From an uncultured Thermoleophilia bacterium (GTDB taxonomy: Bacteria; Actinomycetota; Thermoleophilia; UBA2241), in contig CAIYOD010000032.1 in NCBI GenBank assembly GCA_903927755.1, forward strand, positions 2,391-66,390: a stretch of 64,000 bases of DNA, read 5' to 3'. A model generated the notes under the pieces. That model searched no databases and was not told the origin of the DNA. It saw nothing but the letters and a program-made list of their open reading frames with translations. The position numbers and the translations under genes were made by a program. Below, in pieces: positions 8,957-41,376 of the stretch; the stretch's first letter is position 1, and every line of letters begins with the position of its first letter.

Positions 8957-9472
8957 TCCGGTCGTTCCTCCTCTGGGTGCCGGCCCGACTGAAAGGCGGA
9001 CCCGGACTCAACGAACGTATTACTAAATGACCGTTTAATCCCGGCCTGTCAAGCCTTGGGGCGCCGGCGATCTGCTCCCGCGGATGCGCAGACGACTGAG
9101 TGCCACGCGGGCTTCTCGAGCGGGCGTCCACGCGGGCCCTAGACGGATGTTCCAGGCGCCGGTCCGGCAGGCTCCCGGGTCGGTCTCCAGGCCCCCACTT
9201 CGGCCTGGTCGCGGCCCCGTTTCAGCCTTGATTCGGCCTCGGAAGACGCCACGGCGGCGGAGCTCCTCCTGCTGCCCTAGTACGCGGCGTCGCCTGATGA
9301 GGCGATACCTAGTGCTCATGGAGAAGGAGCCTCGCGCCGAGTGAGGTATATACTTGGCGTTTACAAAGGGTCCCTCAGCCTTGGGACCGCCGGATGCGGG
9401 TGGAGCCGCGTTTGTGCCGGCGGGGGGCGATGTGAGGGGCCTTCATAGCCTGGCAGCAGCGGAGGTGCGCTC

Positions 9473-10315
9473 ATGCGCTCTCACCATTGTCGTCCACGGA
9501 CGGCGCTCTCCCGCATCCCATCTTCCGCACGCCATCAGCGCGGCTTCAGTATGGTCGAGCTCCTGGTCACCATCGTCATCGCCGGCATCGTCTTCGCGGC
9601 CATGGTCCCCTTCTTCGCGAACGCTTTCAGCCGTACCTCGGAGGACGAGGTCCGGGTCGACGCGGCCGCCATCGCCCAGGATCGCATCGAGCAGGTGCGT
9701 CTCCTGGCCTACGCGGACATCACGGACGCTAACCTCAACTACTCGCCAAGCCCTGCCGCCAGTCCGTTCGGAGACGGGCGTTTCGGCTCCAGTTACACCC
9801 TCGTCGGCGAGACCAGAGCCTACGGCGTCACCTACGAAGTCGACCCTGCGTCAGATGCCACTGCGGTGCAGAAGCACATCACGGTCAGCGTCGCTCGGCC
9901 GGGATCGAGCTTCGTCACCACAGCGGACACCATCATCAAGAACCCGGCTGAGGGCCGCGAGCTCTCCACGGCCTACCCCAGCCCGTCGGCGTTGCCCAAC
10001 CTGAGCATGACGGTGTGGTTCGACAACTGGACCTACGTGTCGAACCCCGGGGTGTACATGACTCGCATCGACACCAGGCCGACACCGAATGTCACCATGA
10101 CGCCCCCCATCAGCTCGGCCTCGCCGGGCGTCATCTACCAGAAGCCCACGAGCAGCAACCAGCAGTTGGTGTGGAACAATCTCACCGGCGGCCCCAGCTA
10201 CACGTACACGATCTATGTGAACAGCTCGATGGCCGGCTACGTGCTGGCGTGCCCGCCGTTCCGTCTGTGGAAGAGCGGGCGCATCAAGTTCGACACCTAC
10301 CCCGGCGGAGACTGA
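9473..10315 (+). CDS. Prepilin-type N-terminal methylation-domain protein, PilV/GspI-like (cassette 1, gene a)
   Basis: MRSHHCRPRTALSRIPSSARHQRG|FSMVELLVTIVIAGIVFAAMVP. This is a class III signal peptide with Glu5, followed by AQDRIEQVRLL. Confidence 0.8.
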   Translation: MRSHHCRPRTALSRIPSSARHQRGFSMVELLVTIVIAGIVFAAMVPFFANAFSRTSEDEVRVDAAAIAQDRIEQVRLLAYADITDANLNYSPSPAASPFGDGRFGSSYTLVGETRAYGVTYEVDPASDATAVQKHITVSVARPGSSFVTTADTIIKNPAEGRELSTAYPSPSALPNLSMTVWFDNWTYVSNPGVYMTRIDTRPTPNVTMTPPISSASPGVIYQKPTSSNQQLVWNNLTGGPSYTYTIYVNSSMAGYVLACPPFRLWKSGRIKFDTYPGGD

Positions 10316-10325
10316 GGGCGGCGCC

Positions 10326-11066
10326 GTGACGGACCTACGCACTCATCGTCGGCTCGAGCAGACCGGCCTCACCCTCGTGGAGCTGCTCGTCTCGATGATC
10401 ATCCTCAGCATCATCTCGACGATGCTGATCGTGGGATGGGTCAACTTGCAGCGCGCCGCTGCGTTCTCGGTGAGCACCAACAACGCGCGCGGTACCGCTC
10501 GTGACGCGAGCGCGCGCGTCACCAACGAGCTGCGCGGCTGCCAGCCCACGACGCTACCTACGGCTGACGCGACCGCGACCGCCACGCCCGCTCCGCAGCC
10601 TCCGATCACCTCGGCCGGCCCATGGCAGGCAACGTTCTACTCGTCCTTCAACTCACTCGACGAGGGCGACGAGGGCGACGTGGGGAGCGGGCTTGATGCG
10701 CTGCGGCTCACCCAGATCGAATTGGTCCTGGGCGGCGGCGCGCAGAACACGCTGTGGTGGCGCAAGGACACAGACGACGACGGCACGTTCGACCGGTCGA
10801 ACGTGCTCGCCAGAGACGTGGTGAACGAGAGCATCGCCGACCCCTCGAACGGTGGCGGCACGACCTACACGCCGATCTTCCGCTACGCCTATCGCCCCAC
10901 GGCCGGCGCGCCGGTGCAGTGGACCGACAACGCCGACGGAAGCCTGTCGCTGGCGAACGTGGTCGCAGTGCGCATCCGGATCATCGTGGACGCCAACAGC
11001 GGCCGTCCGCCGAGGGCGATCGATGAGACGACGACGGTGCGCCTCCGCAATTCGGCGATGGAATAG
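10326..11066 (+). CDS. Prepilin-type N-terminal methylation-domain protein, PilW/GspJ-like (cassette 1, gene b)
   Basis: GTG start. MTDLRTHRRLEQTG|LTLVELLVSMIILSIISTML. Confidence 0.8.
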   Translation: MTDLRTHRRLEQTGLTLVELLVSMIILSIISTMLIVGWVNLQRAAAFSVSTNNARGTARDASARVTNELRGCQPTTLPTADATATATPAPQPPITSAGPWQATFYSSFNSLDEGDEGDVGSGLDALRLTQIELVLGGGAQNTLWWRKDTDDDGTFDRSNVLARDVVNESIADPSNGGGTTYTPIFRYAYRPTAGAPVQWTDNADGSLSLANVVAVRIRIIVDANSGRPPRAIDETTTVRLRNSAME

Positions 11067-11076
11067 GAGGCAGGAG

Positions 11077-13536
11077 ATGCACAGGCAACGCAGCCAGCAG
11101 GGCTCGGCCCTCATCCTGCTCATCGGCATCACGGCCACGCTCGCCGTCCTGGCGTCGACGCTGGTCTTCGTCATCCAGAACCAGCAGTTCGCCACGGCCC
11201 AGGAGCGCGGGAAGAAGCAGTCGTTCTACGTCTCCGAGGCGGCGCTCGACGCCGTGGTGCAGACGGCCAAGCTCGGCCAGGAGATGTCCACCACGGGCCC
11301 GTGGCTCACCGACACCGAGCTCGACGCGGCCCTTGCCGGCCTCTTCCCCACAGGCACTGATCTGGACTACCTGGTCTACGACAACCAGCCGACCGTGGAC
11401 CACGAGATCCAGTGGGATGCGGGCCGGCCGACAGATGCGGGCAACCCCGACCAGATGGTCTGGGTGGACGTGACGGCCACTCCGCCCGGGGGGAAGACCA
11501 CGCGCGTCCGCGTCCTCGTCCGGCAGACGAGGGTCTCGTTCGCGTCGGCGCTCCCCAAGTCCGTGCTGTTCAGCGACACCGGCATCAAGGTCCTCGACTC
11601 GAGCGACATCTATGCGCTCAAGCCCGACGGCACGCCTGACGATACCGGCGTCCATCAGACCTCCGTCATGGCGGGTGGAACGTGGCGGAGTGGGATGTCC
11701 GCGGAGCTGGGGCGCTTCTACACGCAGACCTCAAGCACCGACCTCGCCGCGCCGACTACGTCAACCCAGTCACTCGGCATCAGGGCCAACGGTTCCGTGG
11801 TGACTGCCCGCTCCTTCAACGACGTGACCTATGGACCCGGGACCGTCGGCTACCTCAGCGACTACTTCGACCAAGCCGCCCAGGCCGATCTTGCCGACGA
11901 ATCCATGGCCGCCGGGACGCCCGCGGCCGCCCCCGTCGCTCCGGCCGCTCCGCCGACACTGACGGCCAGTACGACTCCATCCTTGGCGGCCTCCAGCTTC
12001 ACACCCAGCGGCCTCACGCCCGCCGTCCTGACCTCGAAGAACGCCACCTACAACGCCACCACGAAGACGTACACGTTCAACGACGGTCTCCTGATCACAG
12101 GCGCCAATCTCACGCTCACCGGCGGTGCGCTCACGACCACCCGCTTCGCCAGCGGGACGGTGTTCGACTTCCGCAAGCAGCTCTCGATGCAGAACAACAG
12201 GAACCTTACCGTGACCGGGGAGCTCACCATCAAGGCACCGTCGTTCTACGCCGGCGGGACGGTCTCGTTCACCAACACGACGGGGACCCCCGTCACCGAG
12301 AGCCTCGGGATCGTGCACGCCACGAAGGCCTTCAGCGCCACCGACCGGGTCTCGCTGGAGATGACATCTCTCTACGCGGGCTCGACCGTCACGCTCTCCA
12401 ACACGACGGCAACGCCGGTGACGGCGAGCTTGGGGAACGTTCGCTCGGCGGGGGCGTTCGGCGTCACGGGCCCGATCACACTGACGACCACCGCGCTCAA
12501 CACGCTCTCCACCGCGGCCATCCAGAACACCAACAACAGCATCGCAGTCATCGACAACCTCGGGACGGTGTACGCGGCCGGCGATCTGACCATCTCCGGC
12601 AACCTCGAGACCATCGGAACCTGGCTGTTCGGCGGCGGCACGACGAGCATCTCCGCCATCTCGGGGTCGAGCACGATCAAGACGCACCGGTACGGGCTCG
12701 TGTACTCGAATCGAGCGGACCGGGTGTTCACGCTGTCGGGCAACGTCCAGCTCTACGCCACCGGCACTGTCATCAACGGGGACTTCACGATCAGCGGCGC
12801 CACTGTGGCCGTGAAGAACTGGCTGGGCTCGATCTTCGTCAAGGCGGATCCGGTCAACGACAACGGTGACGTCCTGTGGAGCGGCATGGCATCCGTCACG
12901 TCGAGGAACTACCTCAACGCGACGGCCGCGCCCCTGCCGATGTGGATGGGCGAGTTCTGGCAGCGGACCGGCACCTACAGCGACGAGTATGGGCCCACGT
13001 GGGTGCCCGGCAACTCGGGCCAGAGCATCATCTTCCGAAGCACGGGCGCCTCAACGGTGATGTGTCCGCTGCTGTGCTCCACGGAGGAGACGGCGATCAT
13101 GGACAACATCACCTTCGGGTCCAGAACGCAGCCGATGGTCTGGTACTTCATGTGCGACAACAACGGTATCTACCCGCAGACCTTCTACGTCGGCACCGAT
13201 GGATACGCCACCTCGCCCAGCAACATCAAGTCGGGCATCGAGATCAGATCGCAAGCGTTCACGGGCAAGTTCCACGGTTTGCTGGTCATCAACGAGTCCG
13301 TCCTGCATGTCCGCGGCAACTACCTCACCACGCCCACCATCCAGGGGGCCGTCTTCGCCGGGTGCCCGTACTCTTCGAGCAGCACGCCGTCGATGAGTGA
13401 CATCACGCTCGAGTATGGCGCGAGCGTGGCCTACGACCAGGCCATCATCGACGCGGTCGCGGGTTCGGCGCTCACGACCACCACGACCGTGACACAGATC
13501 GTCCCCGGCTCCTGGCAGCAGCTGCCGGTGAACTGA
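11077..13536 (+). CDS. Large PilX_N/GspK-like pilus-tip protein with beta-solenoid-like repeats (cassette 1, gene c)
   Basis: In the frame of ORF 10852..13536. The ATG at 11077 follows GGAGGCAGGAG. MHRQRSQQGSALILLIGITATLAVLASTLVF has no Glu5. Also has SFYVSEAALD, a 42-aa tandem repeat at 12241-12492, and ends PGSWQQLPVN. Confidence 0.75.
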   Translation: MHRQRSQQGSALILLIGITATLAVLASTLVFVIQNQQFATAQERGKKQSFYVSEAALDAVVQTAKLGQEMSTTGPWLTDTELDAALAGLFPTGTDLDYLVYDNQPTVDHEIQWDAGRPTDAGNPDQMVWVDVTATPPGGKTTRVRVLVRQTRVSFASALPKSVLFSDTGIKVLDSSDIYALKPDGTPDDTGVHQTSVMAGGTWRSGMSAELGRFYTQTSSTDLAAPTTSTQSLGIRANGSVVTARSFNDVTYGPGTVGYLSDYFDQAAQADLADESMAAGTPAAAPVAPAAPPTLTASTTPSLAASSFTPSGLTPAVLTSKNATYNATTKTYTFNDGLLITGANLTLTGGALTTTRFASGTVFDFRKQLSMQNNRNLTVTGELTIKAPSFYAGGTVSFTNTTGTPVTESLGIVHATKAFSATDRVSLEMTSLYAGSTVTLSNTTATPVTASLGNVRSAGAFGVTGPITLTTTALNTLSTAAIQNTNNSIAVIDNLGTVYAAGDLTISGNLETIGTWLFGGGTTSISAISGSSTIKTHRYGLVYSNRADRVFTLSGNVQLYATGTVINGDFTISGATVAVKNWLGSIFVKADPVNDNGDVLWSGMASVTSRNYLNATAAPLPMWMGEFWQRTGTYSDEYGPTWVPGNSGQSIIFRSTGASTVMCPLLCSTEETAIMDNITFGSRTQPMVWYFMCDNNGIYPQTFYVGTDGYATSPSNIKSGIEIRSQAFTGKFHGLLVINESVLHVRGNYLTTPTIQGAVFAGCPYSSSSTPSMSDITLEYGASVAYDQAIIDAVAGSALTTTTTVTQIVPGSWQQLPVN

Positions 13537-13566
13537 GAACGAGCGGGGAAACGCCCCGCAGAAGAA

Positions 13567-13658
13567 GATCCTCACACCTCTCTCTGCCTCCGGAACAGGC
13601 AAACGTGAGGATCCCAGGGGCCCCGGGCTGGTCGCCAGAACCGCCCGGGGCCCCGTCT
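13567..13658 (+). terminator. Conserved double-hairpin intergenic element, copy A (terminator-like)
   Basis: GATCCTCAC...GTGAGGATC stem, then the perfect 12-bp stem GGGGCCCCGGGC/GCCCGGGGCCCC, then GTCTTTTCT. A near-identical copy lies at 16994-17084. Confidence 0.6.
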
Positions 13659-13826
13659 TTTCTCCGCGCCCCTTCCGGCCGGCGTAGACGATTGTTCGAT
13701 GGTCTGCGTAACGATTTGCCTCAATCATTGGTACTAGTTGCCGATAGATGTCGTGTGGAGCAGCGCGGGCGCTGGCACCCCGTGCATTGATAGCTCCCCC
13801 TTCATCGCCGTTGGGAGGAGTGCCAA

Positions 13827-14654
13827 GTGGATAGCCTGGCAGAGAGAGGCCGCGCGCCGTACGCAATCGAGCGCGCGTCACAAACGTCATCCGGCTTCAG
13901 CCTGGTGGAACTGCTCGTCACCGTCGTGCTCGCGGGCATCGTGTTCGCGGCCTTGGTCCCCGTGTTCGTCAGCGCCCAGAAGGCGTCGTCCGGCGACAGG
14001 TCGCGGAACATCGCCACCAACGTCGCCCAGGACAGGATCGAGAAGATCCGCCTGCTCGCGTTCGACCAGATCGTGGACGACGCCTCGCACCTGCGCTCGA
14101 GCAGCTTCGCGGGCGGGCAGTTCGGCAGCACCTACACTCCCGCCGGCTCCACGAAGGCGTACGCGATCGTGTATTCCGTGGAGAACGTCCCCAGTACGGG
14201 AGCCGTGAACTACAAGCGGATCAGCGTGACCGTCTCCTGGACGGCTCCGCCGGCGCCCGTCCAGCCGGTCACGATGTCCACGATCGTGATGAACCCGTCG
14301 GGCACGAGCGCGAGCTCCTCACCATCGCCCTCGCCGAGCGCCAGCCCTTCAGCCTCGCCGAGCCCGTCGCCGACGATGGGGACGTACTCGCTCACCATCC
14401 TCGTCACGAACAGCTACGTGAACCCGCTTGGGGTGACCGTGGTGCGCACGGACGTCACACCAAACACGGCGGCGATACCGGCCCTGCAGGTGCCGACCAC
14501 TACGACTCCCGTGGTCTGGGCCGGTCTCTCACCCGGGACCTACCTCATAACCTGCAACTACTACAAAGGCGGTAACACCAACAACCAGAAGACGCTCACG
14601 CAGACGGTATACATCACGACCACCAACCAGACCTACACCTTCACCCTCCCATGA
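13827..14654 (+). CDS. Prepilin-type protein, PilV/GspI-like (cassette 2, gene a)
   Basis: GTG follows GGGAGGAG. VDSLAERGRAPYAIERASQTSSG|FSLVELLVTVVLAGIVFAALVP. Also has AQDRIEKIRLL, a Pro/Ser linker and a C-terminal beta-sandwich-like module. Confidence 0.8.
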   Translation: MDSLAERGRAPYAIERASQTSSGFSLVELLVTVVLAGIVFAALVPVFVSAQKASSGDRSRNIATNVAQDRIEKIRLLAFDQIVDDASHLRSSSFAGGQFGSTYTPAGSTKAYAIVYSVENVPSTGAVNYKRISVTVSWTAPPAPVQPVTMSTIVMNPSGTSASSSPSPSPSASPSASPSPSPTMGTYSLTILVTNSYVNPLGVTVVRTDVTPNTAAIPALQVPTTTTPVVWAGLSPGTYLITCNYYKGGNTNNQKTLTQTVYITTTNQTYTFTLP

Positions 14655-15343
14655 GCGGTCGCGCACAAAGAGACGCGCGTCAGCGCGGCATCACCCTCAT
14701 CGAGCTGCTTGTCTCCATGATCATCCTCGGCGTCGTGACCACCCTGCTGCTGCTGGGGTGGACGTCGCTGCAGAAGTCCTATGCGCACTCCGTGAAGGGG
14801 AACAACGCGCGCGCGGAGGTCCGGGACGCCATGGCGCGCGTCACCCGCGAGCTTCGCGATGCCCAGCCTGCCGCGCTTACGACGCCGGCGAGCTCGCCGT
14901 TCACGCTCGCAAACCCGATGGAGGTCGACTTCTACTCCGCGTTCAACAGCGCCGGCGTACGTGCCGACGGCACCGGAATCGGTGCGCTGCGGCTCACGCG
15001 GATCTACCTCGACACGAGCGGGACCGCTGCCCAGAAGACCTTGTACTGGCAGCGCGACAGCAACGCGATCGTCGGGTTCGACAGCGCCGACCGCAAGATC
15101 GTGCTGGCGCGCAACATGGTGAACGCCAGCGTTCCGAGCACGGGGTCGCCGACGGCGATCTTCACCTACGGCTATCGCGACGGCTCCGGCAACTTCACGA
15201 CGGCCACGACCATCGCGAGCGCCGACCTGGGCAAGATCATCTCCGTCCAGGTCCGCATGATCGTGGACGCGAACCTCCTGCGCTCGCCGTCGCCCGCGGA
15301 CCTCCAGACCACCGTCCGTCCGCGCAATGCCCCCCAGAAGTGA
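14651..15343 (+). CDS. Prepilin-type protein, PilW/GspJ-like (cassette 2, gene b)
   Basis: ATGA overlap with the upstream gene. MSGRAQRDARQRG|ITLIELLVSMIILGVVTT. RELRDAQP is shared with the cassette 1 and 3 paralogs. Confidence 0.8.
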   Translation: MSGRAQRDARQRGITLIELLVSMIILGVVTTLLLLGWTSLQKSYAHSVKGNNARAEVRDAMARVTRELRDAQPAALTTPASSPFTLANPMEVDFYSAFNSAGVRADGTGIGALRLTRIYLDTSGTAAQKTLYWQRDSNAIVGFDSADRKIVLARNMVNASVPSTGSPTAIFTYGYRDGSGNFTTATTIASADLGKIISVQVRMIVDANLLRSPSPADLQTTVRPRNAPQK

Positions 15344-15345
15344 GG

Positions 15346-16995
15346 ATGAGTACCATGCGGAGACAGACCAGAGAATCGGGAGCGGCCCTCGTCCTGCTCC
15401 TTGGGATCACCGCCACGCTGGCCATCCTCGCCGCGACGGCCGTGTTCGTGCTGGCCAACCAGCAGTCCGCCACGGCCGCGGACAGGACGCGGGGCCAGTC
15501 GTTCAACTACGCCGAGGCCGGACTGGACAGCGCCGTCATGGCCGTGCGGACGACCACCTGGCCGGCCGCCAACGCAGCGTTCGTTGGGGGCACGCTCACG
15601 GCGGCCTACGACGCCACGTTTCCGTCGGGGAGCCGGCCGCCGCTGACGGTCAAGGTGTACGACAACCAGGCCACGATCAACGAGACGATCACCTGGGACC
15701 AGGGCGGGCCGACAGCGGCTTTCGCGCCGGATGGGAGGCTCTGGGTGGAGGCGAGCGTCACCTACAACGGCAAGACGAGCCGCGTGCGGACCATGGTCGG
15801 CCAGGTGAACCTGACGAGCGGCCTCAAGCTGCCGAAGGCCGCGTTCTACACCGACGGCAACATCAGCACGAGCACCGGCGACGTCTTCGCGCTCAACGCA
15901 GCCGGCGCACCCGACACGACCAAAGCAGCGGCAGTATTCGCCCAGGGCAAGTTCACCGGAGGCTGGGGCACCAACCTCTGGCCGTCCGGCAGCAACCCGT
16001 CGCCATCCGGAGCGACGACGCTCGACGTCAAGACCAACGGCACGGTCACCGCGCCGGAGCTCGGCTGGAACAACAAGGCCGGCACCGGCGGTGTCCCGGC
16101 TCTCAGCACGGTCCTCCCGCAGAGCACGATCGACACGCTGGCGGCGCAGGCCAAGCAGGGCACCCCCACGGTGGCGAACCCCAACGGTACCGTGGCAGAC
16201 GCCGCCTTGATCGCCGCGCTTCAGCTGAACCAGGGCAAGACGACCACCCTGGGCTACGATCTGCGGGTCAACGGCGATCTGAACCTCAAGTCGGGGACGG
16301 CGAACTTCCGCTCCCTGTACGTCACCGGCAACCTCACGGTGAGCAGTGCGGGCGCCATGCACGCCACCAGCCTGTTCGTCGGCGGCGCCTTCACCGTGTC
16401 GGGCACGGACAAGACGCAAACGTGCGGCCCCATCTACGTGGGTGGCAACGTCTCGTGGAACAGCAACTCGTCGGTCGAGACCACCGACTACCTGGACGCG
16501 GCGAAGGCGCCGGCGCCGTTGTATGTCGTCGGTAGCTTCACCTCGTCAGCCGGGCCGTTCTATCACAAGCTCGGCCCGACCTACGTCGGCGGGAGCGTGA
16601 CGTTCTCGGGCAACAACGCGCAGGTCCTCTGCCCGCTGTTCGTCGCCGATGGAAAGGTCACCACCAGCGGCAGTTGCACTCTGGGGACCGTGGCGGACCC
16701 GATCCTGCTGCTCGGGCTGAACGACACGGACGGAGCTGCGACCAGCATCGATCTGAACGGCAACGGCATGATCACGGGCCTCATCGTCAACATGGACGGC
16801 GGCGTGAACCTCGGGAACTCGGGGACGCCGTACCTCGTGCGCGGGGCCGTGTTCTCGACCGGCAACATCACGTACACCAACGGCGGCTGCCAGGTGTGCT
16901 ACGACCCGAACGCCCTGGGGAACCTGGATGTCACCGCATCCTCGACCACCACGGCTGTCGAGCCCGGGACGTGGCAGGAGTTGCCCGCGAACTGA
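15346..16995 (+). CDS. PilX_N/GspK-like pilus-tip protein with beta-helix-like repeats (cassette 2, gene c)
   Basis: In the frame of ORF 14758..16995. The start is the ATG at 15346 or 15355. MSTMRRQTRESGAALVLLLGITATLAILAA. Has SFNYAEAGLD, repeated (L/V)(Y/F)V(G/T)G-x-(V/L/F)-(T/S) strands, and ends PGTWQELPAN. Confidence 0.75.
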   Translation: MSTMRRQTRESGAALVLLLGITATLAILAATAVFVLANQQSATAADRTRGQSFNYAEAGLDSAVMAVRTTTWPAANAAFVGGTLTAAYDATFPSGSRPPLTVKVYDNQATINETITWDQGGPTAAFAPDGRLWVEASVTYNGKTSRVRTMVGQVNLTSGLKLPKAAFYTDGNISTSTGDVFALNAAGAPDTTKAAAVFAQGKFTGGWGTNLWPSGSNPSPSGATTLDVKTNGTVTAPELGWNNKAGTGGVPALSTVLPQSTIDTLAAQAKQGTPTVANPNGTVADAALIAALQLNQGKTTTLGYDLRVNGDLNLKSGTANFRSLYVTGNLTVSSAGAMHATSLFVGGAFTVSGTDKTQTCGPIYVGGNVSWNSNSSVETTDYLDAAKAPAPLYVVGSFTSSAGPFYHKLGPTYVGGSVTFSGNNAQVLCPLFVADGKVTTSGSCTLGTVADPILLLGLNDTDGAATSIDLNGNGMITGLIVNMDGGVNLGNSGTPYLVRGAVFSTGNITYTNGGCQVCYDPNALGNLDVTASSTTTAVEPGTWQELPAN

Positions 16996-17084
16996 TCCTC
17001 ACACCTCTCTCTGCCTCCGGAACAGGCAACGTGAGGATCACAGGGGCCCCGGGCCGGTCGCCAGAACCGCCCGGGGCCCCGTCT
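16994..17084 (+). terminator. Conserved double-hairpin intergenic element, copy B
   Basis: About 90 nt, nearly identical to 13567-13658 with the same two stems. It begins at the stop codon of the cassette 2 tip gene. Confidence 0.55.
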
Positions 17085-17360
17085 CGTTCCGGCGTCGCCA
17101 GGACTGGCTACGCGGGCGTCACGCGCTCGCGAACGCGACGGCCATCGCTTCCGTCACCGTCGTAGTAGTGGCACAATGAGTCTGTGGCCTTGTATCTGGC
17201 CCGCGGGAGGCGGGCACGCAGGGTCTCGGCAAGGGCGGGCGAACCACTAGGGACGCCGCCCGGTGGGACAACGGATGAGCACGAGAGGGCTCATGGTTCC
17301 GCGTTCCCCGCCGATACATCGACTAGAGAAACTACCCGTCTATCCGGAGGCAGGGTACCT

Positions 17361-19043
17361 ATGAGCAGGCACTTCTGGCGAGCCTGCAACCGCGGAGCTG
17401 GCTTCAGCCTCGTGGAGTTGCTGGTCACCATCATCATCGCGGCGATCGCGTTCGGCGCCATGGTCCCCGTGTTCGTGCAGGCCGCCAAGTCGGGCAGCCA
17501 AGACAAGGCGCGAGTCGTTGCCCTCAACATGGCGCAGCAGGCGCTCGAGAGCGCCCGCGGCAAGACGTTCGAGCAGGTCGTCTCCGCGACGTGGACGCAG
17601 GACGAAGAAACTGCCTCCGGCTCCAAGACCTTCACTTTGGAGCGGACCGTGGTCGACCAGGAGGCCTCGGGGACCGACTCGCGCATCGTCTCGAAGCAAG
17701 TGAACGTGGAAGTGACGTGGGACAGACCGACCCCCGGGGGGTCGGTCACCGTCAAGACGGTTCTCTATCGGCAGTTCGCCGGTCCGCAGATCGTCGACTT
17801 CACGGTGGCGCCGTGGGATGAGGAAAACGAGTGGATCACAGACTCGACCGTCGAGCTCACGGCCACGATCAGCGCGGTGGATCAGGACTCGATGGCTCCC
17901 ATCACTGTCGGTGGGGTCACTCTCACAGGCTATGTGCAATTCATGATCACGTCGGTGAGCGGCGTCGTCATCCCGACGATCCAGGTGCCGTACAACGCGG
18001 CCCATCCCGCCGACTACAAGGCCACGTGGCTCGTGCCCGGCGGCGACGGGGTCGGCGACGGCTACTGGTCCTTCAAGGCCGTGGCCTTCTCGGCACAGAA
18101 GTACCCCGGCAACTCCTGGGAGTTCGCCAAGCGCGTGGAATCGGGGCCGGCGGCCACCGTGACGAACCTGCTGGCCACGCCGGGGGATACCTGGGTCAGC
18201 CTGACCTGGTCTCCATCTGTCTCCAACGACCTGGCGTACTACGAGGTGTACCGCACGGGTCCGAACGGGCGCGAGCTCATCGCCGGGGGTCCGCCGGCGC
18301 TCGGTGAGGCCGCGTTCCTCGCTACCGGCTTCACAGACTCCGGCCTGACCAAGGATGTCAACTACACGTACGAGGTCTACGCCGTCGACCTCGTCGCCAC
18401 GCCGGGTGGTGTTCCCGCCACGGTCACGACCAGGACCGGCGAGATCCTGGCAGCGCAGCCGGCGCCGGCCACTGGTCTGACGGCCACGTACAGCGGAAGC
18501 ACTGCCGTCCTCACGTGGCTCGCGTCGCCGACCGTCGACGTCGCGGGCTATCGCGTCTACAAGAATGGGGACTCCACGACGTGGGTCGCAACGGTGAGCG
18601 GGCCCTACTGCGATCTTTCGCAGGGCTATGACACCAGCGCGACCTACCAGGTCAAGCCCTACGCAGTAGGCAGCGACCTTGCCCTCACCGCCTTCGCGAC
18701 CCTCGCGGTCGGGCAGGAACTCGAATCCTACGGCGGCATCCTGTGGGCCAAGGTGGAGATCCCCGACGAGCAGTTCTTCACGCTCAAAGTCATGAACAAT
18801 GTGAAGAGTGGCAAGGCGGCCCTCATCACGCTCAAGTACCTTGGTCCAGAGGGCAAGAGCAGCGCGGTCACCATCGGGTCGCAGAGGATCGACTTCAGTA
18901 CGACGGAGTACAAAGCGGAGTGGGAGGAACTGCAGGCAGGTGTCTACCAGTTCAACTGGGAGGCGAACGGCATCAAGTCCGGCTCGCGCCTGGTCACGCT
19001 CACCACCCCGCAGGAGACCTATCTCGAGAAGTGCATCCCATGA
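17361..19043 (+). CDS. Extended prepilin-type protein, PilV-like N-terminus plus Ig/Fn3-like modules (cassette 3, gene a)
   Basis: In the frame of ORF 17184..19043. The ATG at 17361 follows GGAGG. MSRHFWRACNRGAG|FSLVELLVTIIIAAIAFGAMVP. Two Fn3-like segments are present (WVSLTWSPS...YYEVYR...YTYEVYAVD and AVLTWLAS...GYRVYK). Confidence 0.8.
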   Translation: MSRHFWRACNRGAGFSLVELLVTIIIAAIAFGAMVPVFVQAAKSGSQDKARVVALNMAQQALESARGKTFEQVVSATWTQDEETASGSKTFTLERTVVDQEASGTDSRIVSKQVNVEVTWDRPTPGGSVTVKTVLYRQFAGPQIVDFTVAPWDEENEWITDSTVELTATISAVDQDSMAPITVGGVTLTGYVQFMITSVSGVVIPTIQVPYNAAHPADYKATWLVPGGDGVGDGYWSFKAVAFSAQKYPGNSWEFAKRVESGPAATVTNLLATPGDTWVSLTWSPSVSNDLAYYEVYRTGPNGRELIAGGPPALGEAAFLATGFTDSGLTKDVNYTYEVYAVDLVATPGGVPATVTTRTGEILAAQPAPATGLTATYSGSTAVLTWLASPTVDVAGYRVYKNGDSTTWVATVSGPYCDLSQGYDTSATYQVKPYAVGSDLALTAFATLAVGQELESYGGILWAKVEIPDEQFFTLKVMNNVKSGKAALITLKYLGPEGKSSAVTIGSQRIDFSTTEYKAEWEELQAGVYQFNWEANGIKSGSRLVTLTTPQETYLEKCIP

Positions 19044-19711
19044 TTCGAGTCGTCCCAAGGAGCAGGCAGAAGGGAATCACGCTCGTCGAGCTCCTCGTCG
19101 TGATGTCAATCATGCTGGTCCTGAGCACCATGATCATCGGGACTTGGGTGGCGCTGACCAACGCCTACTCATTCACCAGCCGGAGCGACAAACAGCGGGA
19201 CCTGGCGCGTCAGGCGATCGACCGCATGGCCCGCGAGATACGCGATGCGCAGGAACCCCTGGGCAGCACGAGCACGGCCATCAATCGCGCCTACCCCAAT
19301 GAGATCCGCTTCTACTCCACGTTCAATGCCGCGGACGCGTCTACGCCGACGACGGAGCCACGGCTCACGCGCTTCATCTACAAGGTCACCAACGTCGCGA
19401 ATGGCACCGGCGCGGTCTATCGGGAGTTCCCGGGAGCGGACGGCGATTTCGACACCGCGGGCGACAACGTGTCCGAGCGTCTGATCGCGAACGTCTCCAA
19501 CGATGGCGCCGGCGAGGACGTCTTCACGTACTGGTCCTACGACCCGGCCACAGCGGACCTTGAGCCCTCGGTCGGCATGACCACGCTCGCCGACCCGTCT
19601 CGTGTGGTCGAGGTCGGCATCTCGCTCCTCGTCGACCTCAATCCGGGCAAGGCGCCGAACTACATGGATATCAGCACGAAGGTGCAGCCGCGCAATGTGC
19701 GCGAGTTCTGA
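19040..19711 (+). CDS. Prepilin-type protein, PilW/GspJ-like (cassette 3, gene b)
   Basis: ATGA overlap with the upstream gene. MIRVVPRSRQKG|ITLVELLVVMSIMLVLSTM. Contains REIRDAQEP. Confidence 0.8.
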   Translation: MIRVVPRSRQKGITLVELLVVMSIMLVLSTMIIGTWVALTNAYSFTSRSDKQRDLARQAIDRMAREIRDAQEPLGSTSTAINRAYPNEIRFYSTFNAADASTPTTEPRLTRFIYKVTNVANGTGAVYREFPGADGDFDTAGDNVSERLIANVSNDGAGEDVFTYWSYDPATADLEPSVGMTTLADPSRVVEVGISLLVDLNPGKAPNYMDISTKVQPRNVREF

Positions 19712-19727
19712 CGGGAGGGCGAGCGGG

Positions 19728-20894
19728 ATGGACTCACTGAGACGCGAGACCGGAGCTACGCTCGTCCTGGTCGTCGGCGTGATCGCGGCGCTGTCGATCC
19801 TTTCCAGTGCGTTGATCATGCTCGGAATGAACGTCGCGCAGAACACGGGAGCCCAGACCCAAGAGGTCAAGGCGTTCAACGTGGCCGAGGCCGGCCTGGA
19901 TACCGGCCAGGCGACGCTGTGGGCCGCGTGGCCCGGACCGTCCGCGACCGAACCGTCCGTGGATGCGGGGGCCTTCCAGGCACAGTTCCCCTCGTCCACG
20001 TTCCCTGATCCCGCGTCGGGCCCGTTCATCGACGTGCAGTTCTTCGACGACGATGGTGAGCCGCTCCCGACTCCCGGCATCAACAGGGCTGCGCACGTCG
20101 ACCAGAACGACAACGGCATCATGTGGATCGAGTCCACAGGTGCGACCGGCGGCGGGTCCGCCAAGGTGATGGCGTGTGTCCAGAAGGTCTCTCGCGACCT
20201 GCAGATCCGCGACGGCGTCGCGATCTACAGCGAGGGTGACGTCGAGATCAAGGGGACCGGCAACCAGCCCGTCGTCGGCCTCGACCCGCCCGCCACCGCC
20301 GCACAGGTCCTTGCGGGCGGGAACATCGATTTCAACGGGAACTCCGACGTGGAGGGCGGCGTGGGTCTCGAGGAGTACACCGAGGCCACTCTTCAGGACG
20401 TGTTCCCGACCGAGATCCTGCTCAGCATCATCGAGTCCGGCAAGTCGTTCACCAATTGGAGCGCCTATACCTCCTGGAAGAGCGCACACCCGGGCGTGGA
20501 GCCGTTCGCCACCGACCCGCGCATCATCATCATCGAGAACGGCGATGTCGACGCCAAGAGCCTCCCCGACACCGATGTGGATCCCGCGAACACGAAGCTG
20601 GACACGGTGTGGAGCGAGGAGGACCCGGGCATCCTCGTCGTGCTCAACGGGAGCTTCAATCAGACCGGCCAGAAGAAGACCATCTACGGCATCGTGTACG
20701 TTGTGAACGGCATGATCCTCGGGGGCAACGCCGAGATCCACGGTATGGTCGTGGCCAAGGGGTGGGCGAACCTGCACGGCACCCGAGCCGTGGACTACAA
20801 CCCGAACGTCATCGCCAACCTCCAGCGACCACTGACCTTGTCGGTCAAGCTGGTCCCGAACACATGGCGCGAGCTGGACCCTAGCGGCGGCTGA
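19728..20894 (+). CDS. PilX_N/GspK-like pilus-tip protein (cassette 3, gene c)
   Basis: In the frame of ORF 19602..20894, starting at the ATG at 19728. MDSLRRETGATLVLVVGVIAALSILSS. Has AFNVAEAGLD, and the C-terminus HGMVVAKGWANLHG...YNPN...PNTWREL parallels the other two. Confidence 0.75.
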   Translation: MDSLRRETGATLVLVVGVIAALSILSSALIMLGMNVAQNTGAQTQEVKAFNVAEAGLDTGQATLWAAWPGPSATEPSVDAGAFQAQFPSSTFPDPASGPFIDVQFFDDDGEPLPTPGINRAAHVDQNDNGIMWIESTGATGGGSAKVMACVQKVSRDLQIRDGVAIYSEGDVEIKGTGNQPVVGLDPPATAAQVLAGGNIDFNGNSDVEGGVGLEEYTEATLQDVFPTEILLSIIESGKSFTNWSAYTSWKSAHPGVEPFATDPRIIIIENGDVDAKSLPDTDVDPANTKLDTVWSEEDPGILVVLNGSFNQTGQKKTIYGIVYVVNGMILGGNAEIHGMVVAKGWANLHGTRAVDYNPNVIANLQRPLTLSVKLVPNTWRELDPSGG

Positions 20895-21014
20895 AAGTCT
20901 CCCGCCGCGGCTTCTGCCCCCGTTTGAACGGGCCCGCGGTGTCACACTCCGACGCGAAGCAGCCATCCCTTGAGTCGACCCGTCGCCCGCGCGGCATCGT
21001 ATACTGAGCCGCGA

Positions 21015-21089
21015 GGGCGATTAGCTCAGGGGTAGAGCACCTGCCTTACAAGCAGGGAGTCGCTGGTTCGAAACCAGCATCGCCCACCA
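21015..21089 (+). tRNA. tRNA-Val (anticodon TAC), CCA encoded
   Basis: Hand-folded cloverleaf. Acceptor GGGCGAT/ATCGCCC, D stem GCTC/GAGC, anticodon stem CCTGC/GCAGG with loop CTTACAA, T stem GCTGG/CCAGC with loop TTCGAAA. Confidence 0.9.
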
Positions 21090-22506: not shown

Positions 22507-22672
22507 CAAAGCGCCACCGTCACCACCGACGACATCGCGGAATTCTCCGCAGTCACGGCACGGGGCGTCCAGCCGGTGCGGTCAGTGCGAAGAAGCCCGC
22601 TTGATTGACAGCTCGTGCACATAACTGCATTCTAAAAGCAGTTTTGTACTCCCAGCGGAAGCGAGGTCGCTC

Positions 22673-38314: not shown

Positions 38315-38452
38315 CTCCGTGATAATCCAGCATAACGGCCATCTCGACGCACGACAACGAAAACGAGTACAGAACTCTGGACATCGGCGGCGGGGTCTTG
38401 CAGCCGGGGCGAGGCGGCGTCAGGGTGGAGCGCGCGAGACTCTCACAGACCA

Positions 38453-39946: not shown

Positions 39947-39949
39947 GCC

Positions 39950-41374: not shown

Positions 41375-41376
41375 CG

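What the first reader, a model, noticed from the sequence alone, without database searches (positions are those of the whole stretch)
9473..20894. Three tandem paralogous minor-pilin (tip-complex) triplets with no pilus machinery in the window
Nine consecutive same-strand genes form three homologous triplets at 9473-13536, 13827-16995 and 17361-20894. Each triplet has three members:
- (a) A prepilin with G|FS(M/L)VELLVT and a PilV-like AQ..(I/L)E helix.
- (b) A prepilin with G|(L/I)TL(V/I)ELLV and a shared E(L/I)RD(A/C)Q(E)P block, PilW/GspJ-like.
- (c) A large protein with an uncleaved PilX_N/GspK-like hydrophobic N-terminus lacking Glu5, an (S/A)F(Y/N).(S/A)EA(A/G)LD block, and a shared C-terminal P.(S/T)W(Q/R)(Q/E)L.
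This small/medium/large arrangement, with Glu5 missing only in the largest member, matches the 1:1:1 tip or priming complexes known as GspI-J-K and PilV-W-X. The 64 kb window contains no major pilin, extension or retraction ATPase, platform protein, alignment complex, secretin or prepilin peptidase. I do not know of a described triplicated, machinery-detached cassette of complete tip complexes. It suggests interchangeable tips with different adhesin or receptor specificity for one filament encoded elsewhere. The gene c sizes fall as 819, 549 and 388 aa.
Basis: partly seen in the sequence, partly recalled or inferred. Interest (0 to 1): 0.8.

Follow-up and report, generated by a model that had tools for sequence, protein, structure and literature searches.

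The report
Three tandem type IV pilus tip-gene sets
An uncultured Thermoleophilia actinobacterium carries three old, diverged copies in a row of a three-gene set that most likely builds the starter and tip piece of a type IV pilus; having several such sets is known in other bacteria, but this conserved tandem array, its shared promoter type and a conserved RNA element between the sets have not, to my knowledge, been described.

Summary
Nine co-oriented genes form three paralogous a-b-c trios (26-46% identity within each class). Six carry prepilin signal motifs above the Pfam cutoff. The three large c proteins lack Glu5. The 64 kb window holds no pilus machinery.

Structure models place b with GspJ/XcpW. 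They show c as a pilin-like protein with a beta-solenoid, whose closest solved structure is Thermus ComZ. Only a's N-terminal helix is classifiable.

The same ordered array (type 1, 2, 3) recurs in several other Thermoleophilia metagenome-assembled genomes (MAGs). Orthologues are closer than paralogues, so the triplication is old and maintained. Some genomes carry one or two cassettes, and one holds a deletion scar.

Each cassette has its own conserved sigma-28/WhiG-like promoter motif. Cassettes 1 and 2 each end in a ~92-nt structured element that is about 90% conserved between species. Its invariant loop is complementary to the ribosome-binding site of cassette 3.

Multiple machinery-detached minor-pilin sets are already described (three in Myxococcus xanthus, two in cyanobacteria with solenoid PilX). 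This is therefore a new variant of a known kind, not a new category. Whether a pilus machine exists elsewhere in the genome could not be tested.

The parts
9315..9343 (+). Promoter-like motif of cassette 1: CTCATG-N15-GCCGAGTG, a degenerate sigma-28/WhiG-type -35/-10
   Evidence: The architecture CTCATG-N15-nCCGAnTA is conserved upstream of type-1 a genes in L006, L012 and L013, with a CTAATG variant in L005 (L006, L012 and L013 also matched by the pattern count).
9473..10315 (+). a1: prepilin (G|FSMVE, Glu5). Small pilin module, then a linker and an Ig-like C-terminal domain. 280 aa.
   Evidence: N_methyl 31.6 bits against a cutoff of 21.2. PilV TIGR02523 matches only the N-terminal helix (24.9 bits, cutoff 52.2). 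36% identical to a2. Family alignment.
10326..11066 (+). b1: prepilin (G|LTLVE, Glu5), GspJ/PilW-class by homology to b2. 246 aa.
   Evidence: N_methyl 25.1 bits. 46% identical to b2. Falls in the type-I clade of the b tree.
11077..13536 (+). c1: large tip-pilin-like protein. Hydrophobic N-terminus without Glu5, extended beta-solenoid, conserved C-terminal PGSWQQL strand. 819 aa.
   Evidence: 29% identical to c2 over the full length. Alignment shows extra solenoid rungs. Weak GspK N-terminal match at 15 bits.
13567..13658 (+). Inter-cassette element, copy 1: a stem-loop with the invariant loop CUCUCUGCCUCCGGAACAGGCA, then a GC-rich terminator hairpin and a U-rich tail
   Evidence: 97% identical to copy 2. 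88-93% identical across species. Compensatory pairs in the terminator stem. No Rfam match.
13720..13747 (+). Promoter-like motif of cassette 2: CTCAAT-N14-GCCGATAG, equivalent to TCAA-N15-GCCGATAG in the consensus register (sigma-28/WhiG type)
   Evidence: This is the only match in the window to TAAA-N14-17-GCCGATAA with 2 or fewer mismatches. It is conserved upstream of type-2 a genes in L001, L005, L006, L007 and L013.
13757..13800 (+). Conserved 5'-leader hairpin of cassette 2, followed by a CUCCCCC tract that can pair with the a2 Shine-Dalgarno sequence
   Evidence: RNAalifold on six species gives 15 pairs, mostly invariant, with no compensatory change.
13827..14654 (+). a2: prepilin (G|FSLVE). 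Pilin module, then a Pro/Ser-rich linker and an Ig-like C-terminal domain. 275 aa, GTG start.
   Evidence: N_methyl 23.9 bits. Orthologues are 59-81% identical across the MAGs. The start aligns with ATG in the relatives.
14651..15343 (+). b2: GspJ/XcpW-like minor pilin. 230 aa. Its start overlaps the a2 stop by 4 nt.
   Evidence: AF2 model pLDDT 81.7. Foldseek matches 5bw0 XcpW at E 3.9e-5, prob 1.0, TM 0.58, and 3cfi EpsJ at E 6e-4.
15346..16995 (+). c2: ComZ-like tip pilin. N-terminal helix without Glu5, beta-sheet, beta-solenoid, and a C-terminal strand that returns. 549 aa.
   Evidence: AF2 model pLDDT 88.4, pTM 0.74. Foldseek best hit is 6qvi ComZ, E 9.6e-4, prob 0.96, TM 0.25, followed by ice-binding solenoids. 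PilX_N 19.5 bits, below the 25.5 cutoff.
16994..17084 (+). Inter-cassette element, copy 2. It begins at the c2 stop codon.
   Evidence: (MFE -58.2 kcal/mol, z -4.7).
17290..17317 (+). Promoter-like motif of cassette 3: CTCATG-N14-GCCGATAC
   Evidence: Conserved upstream of type-3 a genes in L005, L006, L007, L012, L013, L014, L015, L016 and L039, even where the spacer sequence differs.
17344..17353 (+). a3 ribosome-binding region CCGGAGGCAG, the exact complement of the invariant loop 10-mer of the inter-cassette element
   Evidence: Present at the a3 RBS in all 9 element-bearing arrays and absent from the element-less L014-L016. Duplex energy -30.9 kcal/mol, z -4.3, reached by 0 of 300 shuffles.
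17361..19043 (+). a3: modular prepilin (G|FSLVE) with two fn3 domains and a further C-terminal domain. 560 aa.
   Evidence: N_methyl 23.7 bits and fn3 34.6 bits in 2 stretches. Pilin module 33-35% identical to a1 and a2.
19040..19711 (+). b3: prepilin (G|ITLVE), GspJ/PilW-class by homology. 223 aa. Its start overlaps the a3 stop by 4 nt.
   Evidence: N_methyl 30.9 bits. 31-34% identical to b1 and b2. Type-III clade of the b tree.
19728..20894 (+). c3: the shortest c paralogue (388 aa). Same N-terminal module and C-terminal PNTWREL strand, with a shorter middle region.
   Evidence: blastp to c2 gives E 1e-13 and 2e-6, and to c1 gives 2e-8. No Pfam or NCBIfam hit. Orthologues of 386-400 aa in L005, L006, L012-L016.
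21015..21089 (+). tRNA-Val(TAC), the conserved downstream anchor of the array. It is not part of the system.
   Evidence: ARAGORN and Rfam. The flank is conserved in L005, L006, L012 and L013.

Best explanation
The locus encodes three alternative core minor-pilin modules for a type IV filament machine that is encoded elsewhere in the genome.

Inferred mechanism within each module:
- a is a modular pilin with Glu5 and an extra Ig or fn3 domain.
- b is a GspJ/PilW-class pilin with Glu5.
- c is a GspK/PilX/ComZ-class pilin without Glu5 that carries a beta-solenoid.
- The three genes are co-translated from tightly packed or overlapping genes. A prepilin peptidase is inferred to process a and b, and probably c.
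- Their N-terminal helices would associate in the membrane into a heterotrimer. This trimer would prime filament polymerisation and end up at the filament tip.
- The c solenoid, with the a add-on domain, would form the distal cap that binds the ligand.

The three cassette types have distinct, conserved architectures: c is about 800, 550 or 390 aa, and a carries an Ig-like domain or two fn3 domains. They have been kept as separate orthologous lineages across Thermoleophilia species. They therefore most likely give the pilus three different tip specificities, or prime different filament types.

Each cassette is its own transcription unit. It has a sigma-28/WhiG-type promoter, and cassettes 1 and 2 end in a conserved terminator-containing element. 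The loop of that element can pair with the cassette-3 ribosome-binding site, which suggests cross-talk or insulation between cassettes.

Shown: gene content, paralogy, pilin signals, folds of b2 and c2, conservation of the array, conserved motifs.
Inferred: assembly into a trimer, tip location, dependence on a distant machine, sigma-factor identity, RNA pairing.
For: - Six N_methyl domains are above cutoff, and the Glu5 pattern is E/E/none.
- The b2 model matches the GspJ-class structures XcpW and EpsJ, which were solved in complexes with the GspI-class partner.
- The c2 model is a pilin helix and sheet with an inserted solenoid and a returning C-terminal strand. Its best PDB hit is ComZ, and the next hits are ice-binding solenoids. 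The ComZ paper reports the same pair of resemblances: a GspK-like pilin domain and an FfIBP-like solenoid inserted before the last strand (PMC6561018).
- Gene spacing is -4 to +16 nt within cassettes and 290-365 nt between them.
- The same ordered three-cassette array occurs in L005, L006, L012, L013 and L017-L020. In the b-protein tree, the b orthologues of each type form a separate clade.
- Cassette number varies from 1 to 3, and L007 holds a deletion scar of cassette 1.
- 19 of 20 matches to the promoter pattern in 721 kb (both strands counted) lie just upstream of an a gene.
- In the sister class Rubrobacteria, type IV pilus genes are driven by WhiG promoters (TAAA/GCCGATAA) under RsiG-c-di-GMP control (PMC8325347). 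In relatives a GAF-GGDEF gene lies close upstream of the array, separated from it by a UPF0182 gene.
- Precedents for several sets serving one machine: M. xanthus (PMC7541494) and cyanobacteria (10.64898/2026.02.12.705559).
Against: - No pilus ATPase, platform protein, peptidase or major pilin was seen in the window or in any 10-kb flank of related loci. I could not search any whole genome, so the existence of a machine is assumed.
- No curated PilV, PilW, GspI/J/K or PilX model reaches its cutoff.
- The ComZ match has a low TM-score (0.25), and there is no sequence-level link.
- Protein a was not modelled.
- No fourth (FimU/GspH-class) minor pilin and no PilY1 are present.
- Co-folding of the trio was not possible with the tools available.
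- The promoter pattern was derived from the same sequences it was counted on.
Confidence: 0.68

Rival explanations
1. Each cassette primes its own, morphologically distinct filament made from a different major pilin on the shared machine. This is the 'distinct pilus' model proposed for cyanobacteria. It contrasts with putting different tips on one filament type.
For: - The cyanobacterial preprint shows two core sets with solenoid PilX priming two filament types.
- The three cassette types here have conserved, very different c sizes.
Against: - No major pilin genes are linked to any cassette.
- M. xanthus uses three sets with one major pilin.
- Nothing here discriminates between the two models.
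Confidence: 0.3
2. At least one cassette builds a short competence or secretion pseudopilus, as in Thermus PilA1-3/ComZ or T2SS GspIJK. The solenoid protein would act as a DNA or substrate receptor rather than a surface adhesin.
For: - The closest solved structure to c2 is the DNA-binding competence pilin ComZ (PMC6561018).
- b2 matches T2SS pseudopilins best.
Against: - The fold match is architectural only (TM 0.25, 13% identity).
- No comEA/comEC or T2SS genes lie nearby.
- Thermoleophilia are actinobacteria and presumably lack the outer membrane a T2SS would cross (general knowledge).
Confidence: 0.15
3. The three cassettes are functionally redundant back-ups, or drifting duplicates without distinct roles.
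For: - Cassette number varies between genomes and one deletion scar exists.
- In M. xanthus two clusters are individually sufficient.
Against: - Paralogues are only 26-46% identical, yet each type is kept with a type-specific architecture across species.
- The promoters and the inter-cassette element are conserved.
- All nine ORFs in the window are intact.
Confidence: 0.1
4. The proteins are membrane-anchored surface adhesins that use a pilin-like N-terminal helix only as an anchor and are never assembled into a filament.
For: - No machinery is seen nearby.
- The a and c proteins carry adhesin-type domains: fn3, Ig-like, and a solenoid.
Against: - The complete class-III signal with Gly-1 and Glu5 is conserved in all a and b orthologues.
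- The GspJ fold of b and the strict trio organisation are hallmarks of assembly-competent minor pilins.
Confidence: 0.05

Closest known systems
Myxococcus xanthus minor-pilin/PilY1 clusters 1-3 (Treuner-Lange et al. 2020, PMC7541494)
   Same: Three complete paralogous priming/tip sets in one genome. They lie apart from the machine genes and serve a single T4aP machine. The largest pilin (PilX) lacks Glu5.
   Different: In M. xanthus the clusters are dispersed. Each has four minor pilins plus PilY1, and the organism is diderm. Here the sets are tandem trios with no FimU-class pilin and no PilY1. The c protein carries its own solenoid. The host is an actinobacterium.
Cyanobacterial Com and EPS core minor-pilin sets with beta-solenoid PilX (Schuergers et al. 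2026 preprint, 10.64898/2026.02.12.705559)
   Same: - Multiple core sets per genome.
- The PilX-class member has a beta-solenoid inserted before the last strand, and no PilY1 is present.
- The sets are transcribed separately and linked to second-messenger control.
   Different: The cyanobacterial sets have four members (FimT, PilW, PilV, PilX), number two rather than three, and are not tandem. There is no detectable sequence similarity to the c family here.
Thermus thermophilus pilA1-pilA2-pilA3-comZ competence pilin locus; ComZ structure 6QVI (PMC6561018)
   Same: ComZ is the best structural match for c2: a GspK-like pilin module plus a large solenoid, proposed as a tip cap bound to a neighbouring minor pilin.
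   Different: - TM-score is only 0.25 and identity 13%.
- The Thermus locus is single-copy and adjacent to the major pilin pilA4.
- DNA binding is untested here.
T2SS GspI-GspJ-GspK / XcpV-W-X pseudopilus tip complex (PDB 3CI0, 5BW0, 3CFI)
   Same: Small/medium/large trio. Glu5 is absent only in the largest member. The b2 fold matches GspJ-class chains.
   Different: - a is much larger than GspI and is modular.
- c has a solenoid instead of the GspK helical insert.
- No T2SS genes are present.
- No curated Gsp model reaches its cutoff.
WhiG/RsiG-c-di-GMP-controlled type IV pilus cluster of Rubrobacter (Schumacher et al. 2021, PMC8325347)
   Same: Rubrobacteria are the sister class. Their pilus genes have flagellar-type (TAAA / GCCGATAA) promoters, and diguanylate cyclase genes are linked to the pilus genes.
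   Different: In Rubrobacter the promoters sit in a complete pil gene cluster. Here the -35 is CTCA(A/T)G, only minor-pilin cassettes are seen, and no whiG or rsiG lies in the window.
Verru_Chthon cassettes (NCBIfam TIGR02596-TIGR02600; recalled from memory of the family descriptions)
   Same: Many repeated cassettes of prepilin-type proteins scattered away from any machine.
   Different: These are four-gene cassettes in Verrucomicrobiota. Only the N-terminal helix of b matches protein C, at 20-23 bits against a cutoff of 256. The proteins here are not members.

Membership tests
Type IV pilin / pseudopilin superfamily (class III signal peptide) | Short basic leader ending in Gly, then a hydrophobic helix with Glu at +5; Pfam N_methyl at or above the gathering score | tested here: met
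   All six a and b proteins score 23.7-32.7 bits against a cutoff of 21.2. The motifs were read directly. They are conserved in all orthologues.
Type IV pilin / pseudopilin superfamily (class III signal peptide) | Cleavage and N-methylation by a prepilin peptidase (PilD/A24) | not testable with these tools
   No A24 peptidase is in the window.
GspJ / PilW class minor pilin (protein b) | GspJ-type fold: N-terminal helix plus two beta-sheets | tested here: met
   The b2 model (pLDDT 81.7) matches 5bw0_A/G (XcpW) and 3cfi_B (EpsJ) at prob 1.00 and TM 0.55-0.58 normalised by target length. There are no other hits with E below 0.3.
GspJ / PilW class minor pilin (protein b) | Curated profile match (Pfam PilW PF16074, TIGR01711 gspJ) at or above the cutoff | tested here: not met
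   PilW scores 12.3 bits against 26, in b1 only. No gspJ hit was found in b1-b3.
GspK / PilX / ComZ class tip pilin (protein c) | Hydrophobic pilin-type N-terminus lacking Glu5 | tested here: met
   Position +5 is Leu in c1, c2 and c3. Gly-1 is nearly invariant in 63 homologues.
GspK / PilX / ComZ class tip pilin (protein c) | Curated profile match (PilX_N PF14341, T2SS_GspK NF037980) at or above the cutoff | tested here: not met
   - c2: PilX_N 19.5 bits against 25.5, and GspK 25 bits against 130.
- c1: GspK 15 bits.
- c3: nothing.
- 20 of 63 family members give sub-threshold PilX_N hits.
GspK / PilX / ComZ class tip pilin (protein c) | Pilin fold interrupted by a large inserted domain, a beta-solenoid in ComZ and cyanobacterial PilX | tested here: inconclusive
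   The c2 model (pLDDT 88.4) shows helix 11-69, a beta-sheet, a solenoid at about 299-520 and terminal strands 530-546. ComZ is the only PDB hit with E at or below 1e-3 (prob 0.96), but TM is 0.25. There is no sequence-level link.
GspI / PilV class minor pilin (protein a) | Curated profile match (TIGR02523 PilV, TIGR01707 GspI) or a GspI-type fold | tested here: inconclusive
   PilV scores 22-26 bits against a cutoff of 52.2, and the match covers only the N-terminal 60-80 residues. GspI scores 12-13.5 bits against 44. The PDB profile search hits only pilin helices and fn3.
Heterotrimeric priming/tip complex (GspIJK-like) | The three proteins form a 1:1:1 complex through their N-terminal helices and globular contacts | not testable with these tools
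   No multimer prediction was available. The only indirect evidence is the strict a-b-c order, overlapping or 2-16 nt gene junctions, and co-inheritance of trios.
Multiple minor-pilin sets serving one T4aP machine (M. xanthus / cyanobacterial type) | Two or more complete paralogous core sets in one genome | tested here: met
   Three sets are present here. The array is conserved in L005, L006, L012 and L013.
Multiple minor-pilin sets serving one T4aP machine (M. xanthus / cyanobacterial type) | Each set contains four core minor pilins, including a FimU/FimT/GspH-class member (plus PilY1 in M. xanthus) | tested here: not met
   Each cassette has only three genes, and the window has six class-III signals in total. 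No PilY1-like gene was found.
Multiple minor-pilin sets serving one T4aP machine (M. xanthus / cyanobacterial type) | A single machine (PilB/C/M/N/O/T, PilD) and a major pilin encoded elsewhere | not testable with these tools
   None is in the window or in the 10-kb flanks of more than 12 related loci. Whole genomes could not be searched.
Sigma-28 / WhiG (flagellar-type) promoter | -35 TAAA and -10 GCCGATAA with about 15-nt spacing and 2 or fewer mismatches (the criterion of PMC8325347) | tested here: inconclusive
   - Cassette 2 meets the criterion (TCAA-N15-GCCGATAG).
- Cassette 3 has 3 mismatches and cassette 1 has more.
- The variant CTCA(A/T)G-N13-15-(G)CCGA(n)TA is conserved across species and almost exclusive to cassette starts, at 19 of 20 matches.
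- No transcription start data exist, and no sigma factor gene was seen.

The most novel reading that the evidence does not exclude
The ~92-nt element that ends cassettes 1 and 2 may be a previously undescribed regulatory RNA. It would be a 3'-UTR or read-through element, possibly released as a small RNA.

Its invariant loop (CUCUCUGCCUCCGG) would base-pair with the ribosome-binding site of the first gene of cassette 3. Transcription of the upstream cassettes would then silence or insulate translation of the third. That would impose a hierarchy on which pilus tip complex a cell makes.

Together with three sigma-28/WhiG-type promoters, this would be a built-in RNA-based tip-selection circuit in a tandem minor-pilin array.
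Probability: 0.2. Interest if true: 0.75.

Novelty: new variant of a known kind. Interest (0 to 1): 0.5.

Why it matters
- **Pili in an unstudied group.** Type IV pili in actinobacteria are barely studied, and Thermoleophilia are almost entirely uncultured. The locus shows that a clade of them maintains three distinct, anciently diverged tip/priming modules in one array. This extends the 'several minor-pilin sets, one machine' principle from Myxococcus and cyanobacteria to a deep actinobacterial lineage.
- **A minimal module.** It does so in a three-gene form with a solenoid-bearing PilX/ComZ-type cap and no PilY1.
- **A compact test system.** The tandem layout, the shared alternative-sigma promoter type and the highly conserved inter-cassette RNA element make it a small system for testing how cells choose among pilus tips.
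- **Annotation.** It gives a framework for a family of about 300 to 1,300 cluster representatives that currently has no curated model.

Tried and rejected
- **Exact-sequence look-up failed.** Look-ups of c2 and of its 546-aa database twin found no indexed contig, so the source contig could not be extended.
- **Genome-collection scans were limited.** The single-protein scan found nothing. Only the closer c2-orthologue alignment worked. Both genome scans are now used, so no machinery search in genomes was possible.
- **Literature.** A search for pili in Thermoleophilia returned only the WhiG/RsiG paper.
- **Rfam.** At E up to 1, the locus gave only the tRNA.
- **Standard promoter and terminator scan.** The sigma-70 and terminator scan was uninformative in this 67% GC DNA.
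- **PDB profile searches.** Sequence-profile searches with the a, b and c families hit only generic pilin N-terminal helices and fn3. There is therefore no sequence-level link to GspI/J/K, PilV/W/X or ComZ.
- **Metagenome scan with the element core.** I hoped it would lead to other regulon members such as the major pilin or machinery. It returned 91 stretches, but only 7 full copies, all at cassette junctions or the syntenic flank.
- **Duplex folding on long windows.** GC-rich sequence gave non-discriminating energies. The analysis was redone with the loop only and shuffled controls.
- **Genomic island or recent duplication considered and rejected.** The array sits next to the same tRNA-Val and META gene in distant relatives. 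Paralogues are far more diverged than orthologues.
- **a as the major pilin, considered unlikely.** a is 275-560 aa and modular. It is translationally coupled to b. It is present in three diverged versions.

Full report
**1.

- a1 9473-10315, b1 10326-11066, c1 11077-13536
- a2 13827-14654, b2 14651-15343, c2 15346-16995
- a3 17361-19043, b3 19040-19711, c3 19728-20894

Within a cassette the genes overlap by 4 nt or are 2-16 nt apart. Between cassettes there are 290 and 365 nt.

All-against-all blastp shows three paralogous classes:
- a-a 33-36% identity
- b-b 31-46%
- c-c 26-29% (E-values 2e-8 to 3e-49)

The quoted sequence blocks are present. One deviation: b1 reads ELRGCQP.

Pfam N_methyl is above its gathering score in all six a and b proteins. 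Glu5 is present in a and b and is Leu in c1-c3.

A six-frame regex scan finds exactly six class-III signal motifs in the 64 kb, namely these genes. No further pilin, major or minor, is therefore in the window.

Pfam scans of 39 other predicted genes found only:
- transporters and amino-acid/one-carbon metabolism (three MttB paralogues, aromatic amino acid (histidine) ammonia-lyase family genes (Lyase_aromatic) and a formiminotransferase-cyclodeaminase (FTCD_C) gene, 2-oxoacid:ferredoxin oxidoreductases)
- glycosyltransferases
- regulators

There is no pilus ATPase, platform protein, A24 peptidase, PilMNO or secretin.

**2. Where it comes from**

Homologues of c2 and b2 come from metagenome-assembled genomes labelled Thermoleophilia or Actinomycetota. 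An identical protein sits on a 140.5-kb contig, but that contig is not indexed for retrieval.

The c family is small. A profile search of 1.84 billion cluster representatives finds 302 proteins at E<=1e-10 and 1305 at E<=1e-3. No member reaches a curated Pfam cutoff, except for a few that carry DUF7305.

**3. What the proteins are**

Profile libraries recognise only the N-terminal helix. The sub-threshold hits are PilV, GspG/H/I and ComGE for a and b, and PilX_N or GspK for c1 and c2. Nothing is found for c3. PDB sequence-profile searches behave the same way.

Structure prediction was more informative.
- **b2** (53-sequence alignment, pLDDT 81.7) matches only three PDB chains with E below 1e-3. 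All three are GspJ-class minor pseudopilins solved in complex with their GspI partner: XcpW in 5BW0 and EpsJ in 3CFI (prob 1.00, TM 0.55-0.58 on the target).
- **c2** (63 sequences, pLDDT 88.4, pTM 0.74) has these parts in order:
  - a 59-residue N-terminal helix
  - a beta-sheet
  - a helical segment
  - a long beta-solenoid (about residues 299-520)
  - terminal strands carrying the conserved PGTWQEL motif
- Its only PDB hit at E<=1e-3 is the Thermus thermophilus competence pilin ComZ (6QVI, prob 0.96). Ice-binding-protein solenoids follow.
- The ComZ paper describes exactly that pair of resemblances. ComZ has a GspK-like pilin domain with an FfIBP-like solenoid inserted before the last strand, and it is argued to be a tip cap that binds a neighbouring minor pilin (PMC6561018).
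- The global TM-score is low (0.25), so I treat this as shared architecture, not proven homology.

Its alignment shows:
- a ~130-residue pilin module
- then a Pro/Ser/Thr-rich linker and an Ig-like domain in types 1 and 2
- or two fn3 domains plus more in type 3 (fn3 34.6 bits)

So a is a modular pilin rather than a small GspI/PilV.

**4. The array is old and conserved**

A tblastn of the nine proteins against 16 related loci, with further contexts, shows the following.
- The same ordered array (type 1, type 2, type 3) occurs in several distinct Thermoleophilia MAG species: L005/L018, L006, L012/L019 and L013.
- Other genomes carry one cassette. It is type 2 in L001-L003 and L008-L011, and type 1-like in L004 and L115.
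- Others carry two cassettes (L014, L015, L047).
- Cross-genome orthologues of types 1 and 2 (roughly 40-76% identical to the window proteins; the L005 type-1 cassette is an outlier near 41%) are closer than within-genome paralogues. Type 3 is much more divergent at 30-37%.
- A neighbour-joining tree of b proteins resolves three clades by type, not by genome.
- Type-specific sizes are conserved: c is about 770-870, 545-555 and 386-400 aa.
- L007 retains the start of a1 fused to the end of c1. This is a deletion scar of cassette 1.

The flank is conserved. tRNA-Val, a META-domain gene, a histidine kinase and glycosyltransferases lie downstream. In relatives a GAF-GGDEF protein and UPF0182 lie upstream.

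The window has a different upstream flank. It also lacks the response regulator that follows the kinase in relatives.

In none of these contexts is pilus machinery within 10 kb.

**5. Regulation signals**

*Promoter motif.* Upstream of a2 lies the window's only match to the flagellar/WhiG promoter consensus as used for Rubrobacter (TAAA-N15-GCCGATAA, 2 or fewer mismatches; PMC8325347).

Alignment across species shows a conserved CTCA(A/T)G-N14-15-GCCGATA(G/C) upstream of type-2 and type-3 a genes. It holds even in distant loci whose spacers are unrelated. A weaker CTCATG-N15-nCCGAnTA lies upstream of type 1.

A combined pattern gives 20 matches in 721 kb (both strands counted). Nineteen are directly upstream of an a gene. 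The pattern was derived from these sequences, so this shows specificity, not an independent test.

In Rubrobacter, WhiG under RsiG-c-di-GMP control drives the type IV pilus cluster. The GGDEF neighbour in relatives fits the same theme. The common promoter type argues for co-regulation rather than alternation at the level of transcription initiation.

*Inter-cassette element.* Right after c1 and right after c2 lies a ~92-nt element (13567-13658 and 16994-17084).
- The two copies are 97% identical, although the flanking genes are about 30% identical at the protein level.
- It folds into a stem-loop plus a GC-rich terminator hairpin with a U-rich tail (z -4.7).
- Three terminator pairs show compensatory changes among 19 copies.
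- It is 88-93% identical between species whose cassette-2 DNA is 72-74% identical and whose cassette 3 is not alignable at the DNA level. That is comparable to the neighbouring tRNA flank.
- It occurs exactly twice per three-cassette array and nowhere else in the loci.
- A metagenome-wide scan with its 19-nt core recovered seven full copies, all at cassette junctions or the syntenic flank.
- Rfam has no match.

The invariant loop 10-mer CUGCCUCCGG is the exact complement of CCGGAGGCAG in the Shine-Dalgarno region of a3 (17344-17353).
- That 10-mer is at the a3 ribosome-binding site in all nine element-bearing arrays.
- It is absent from type-3 genes of genomes without the element.
- Loop-versus-RBS duplex energy is -30.9 kcal/mol for a3 (z -4.3, reached by 0 of 300 shuffles).
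- The duplex is not significant for seven of the other eight genes. c1 is intermediate.

This suggests the element masks the a3 ribosome-binding site. It could act in read-through transcripts (insulation) or in trans (hierarchy). Both partners are invariant, so there is no covariation support. The co-occurrence is also confounded with phylogeny.

**6. Interpretation**

The most economical reading is three alternative core minor-pilin modules of the GspI-J-K / PilV-W-X / PilA-ComZ kind. Each would be a priming complex that ends up as the filament tip, for a type IV filament machine encoded elsewhere.

The type-specific, conserved solenoid lengths in c and add-on domains in a point to different ligand specificities, or to different filament types.

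- Curated family membership is not met for any of the nine proteins. The placement rests on fold (b), architecture (c), signal-peptide logic and gene organisation.
- The concept is not new. M. xanthus has three minor-pilin/PilY1 clusters working with one major pilin and one machine (PMC7541494). Cyanobacteria have two core sets whose PilX carries a ComZ-like solenoid proposed to replace PilY1 (preprint).
- The existence of a machine could not be checked.

The features that appear new, to my knowledge, are:
- the tandem, order-conserved triple array
- the minimal three-gene form
- the actinobacterial (Thermoleophilia) host
- the common sigma-28-like promoters
- the array-specific RNA element

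**7. Verdict**

I classify it as a new variant of a known kind, of moderate interest (0.5).

The most novel open possibility is RNA-mediated cross-regulation between cassettes. I give it about a 0.2 probability.

Noticed in passing
window 13567-13658 and 16994-17084 (+): A ~92-nt double-hairpin element lies directly after c1 and after c2. The two copies are 97% identical to each other and 88-93% identical across species. It is specific to the array and absent from Rfam. Its invariant loop is complementary to the a3 ribosome-binding site at 17344-17353.
   Followed up: yes
window 13757-13800 (+), with L005, L006, L007, L012 and L013 equivalents: The 5' leader of cassette 2 holds a conserved hairpin (GGAGC...GCGGG/CCCGC...GCUCC). 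It is followed by CUCCCCC, which can pair with the a2 Shine-Dalgarno sequence GGGAGG. No compensatory changes were seen in six sequences.
   Followed up: partly
L007:7627-8184: In the MAG AS06rmzACSIP_445 the type-1 promoter and the start of a1 are joined to the 3' end of c1 and the element. This is a deletion scar showing loss of cassette 1.
   Followed up: partly
window 21015-21089 (+): tRNA-Val(TAC) lies 120 nt after c3. The tRNA and the META-domain gene flank are conserved next to the array in distant relatives. The upstream flank differs: OTCase, TetR and an S15 peptidase here, against GAF-GGDEF and UPF0182 in relatives.
   Followed up: partly
window 21739-23947 (+): The histidine kinase downstream of the array is followed here by a DUF4143/AAA_14 ATPase. 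In L004, L018 and L019 a response regulator follows the kinase instead.
   Followed up: no
window 38336-42777 (+): Three tandem MttB-family (trimethylamine methyltransferase-like) paralogues. The first two share DNA segments of 82-98% identity (repeat families D1, D3 and D4).
   Followed up: no
window 9000-21000: The cassette region has lower GC (0.64-0.68) and lower third-position GC (0.84-0.88) than the flanking genes (0.70-0.73 and 0.90-0.95).
   Followed up: no
L012/L019/L020 cassette 1 and L018/L020 cassette 3: Several cassette genes are split into fragments in some long-read MAG contigs, while near-identical contigs carry them intact (compare L017 with L018). These are either assembly frameshifts or real pseudogenisation.
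   Followed up: no
L112-L114 (JGI/ENA contigs): A more distant a-b-c trio: 558-aa fn3 pilin, 212-aa pilin, and a 457-aa c protein with faint DUF7305. It sits next to a HicA/HicB toxin-antitoxin pair, is followed by an unannotated 412-454-aa protein, and is again without machinery.
   Followed up: no
window 11047-11076 (c1 ribosome-binding region): The c1 Shine-Dalgarno region GGAGGCAGGAG is also partly complementary to the element loop (duplex -25.3 kcal/mol, z -2.5).
   Followed up: partly
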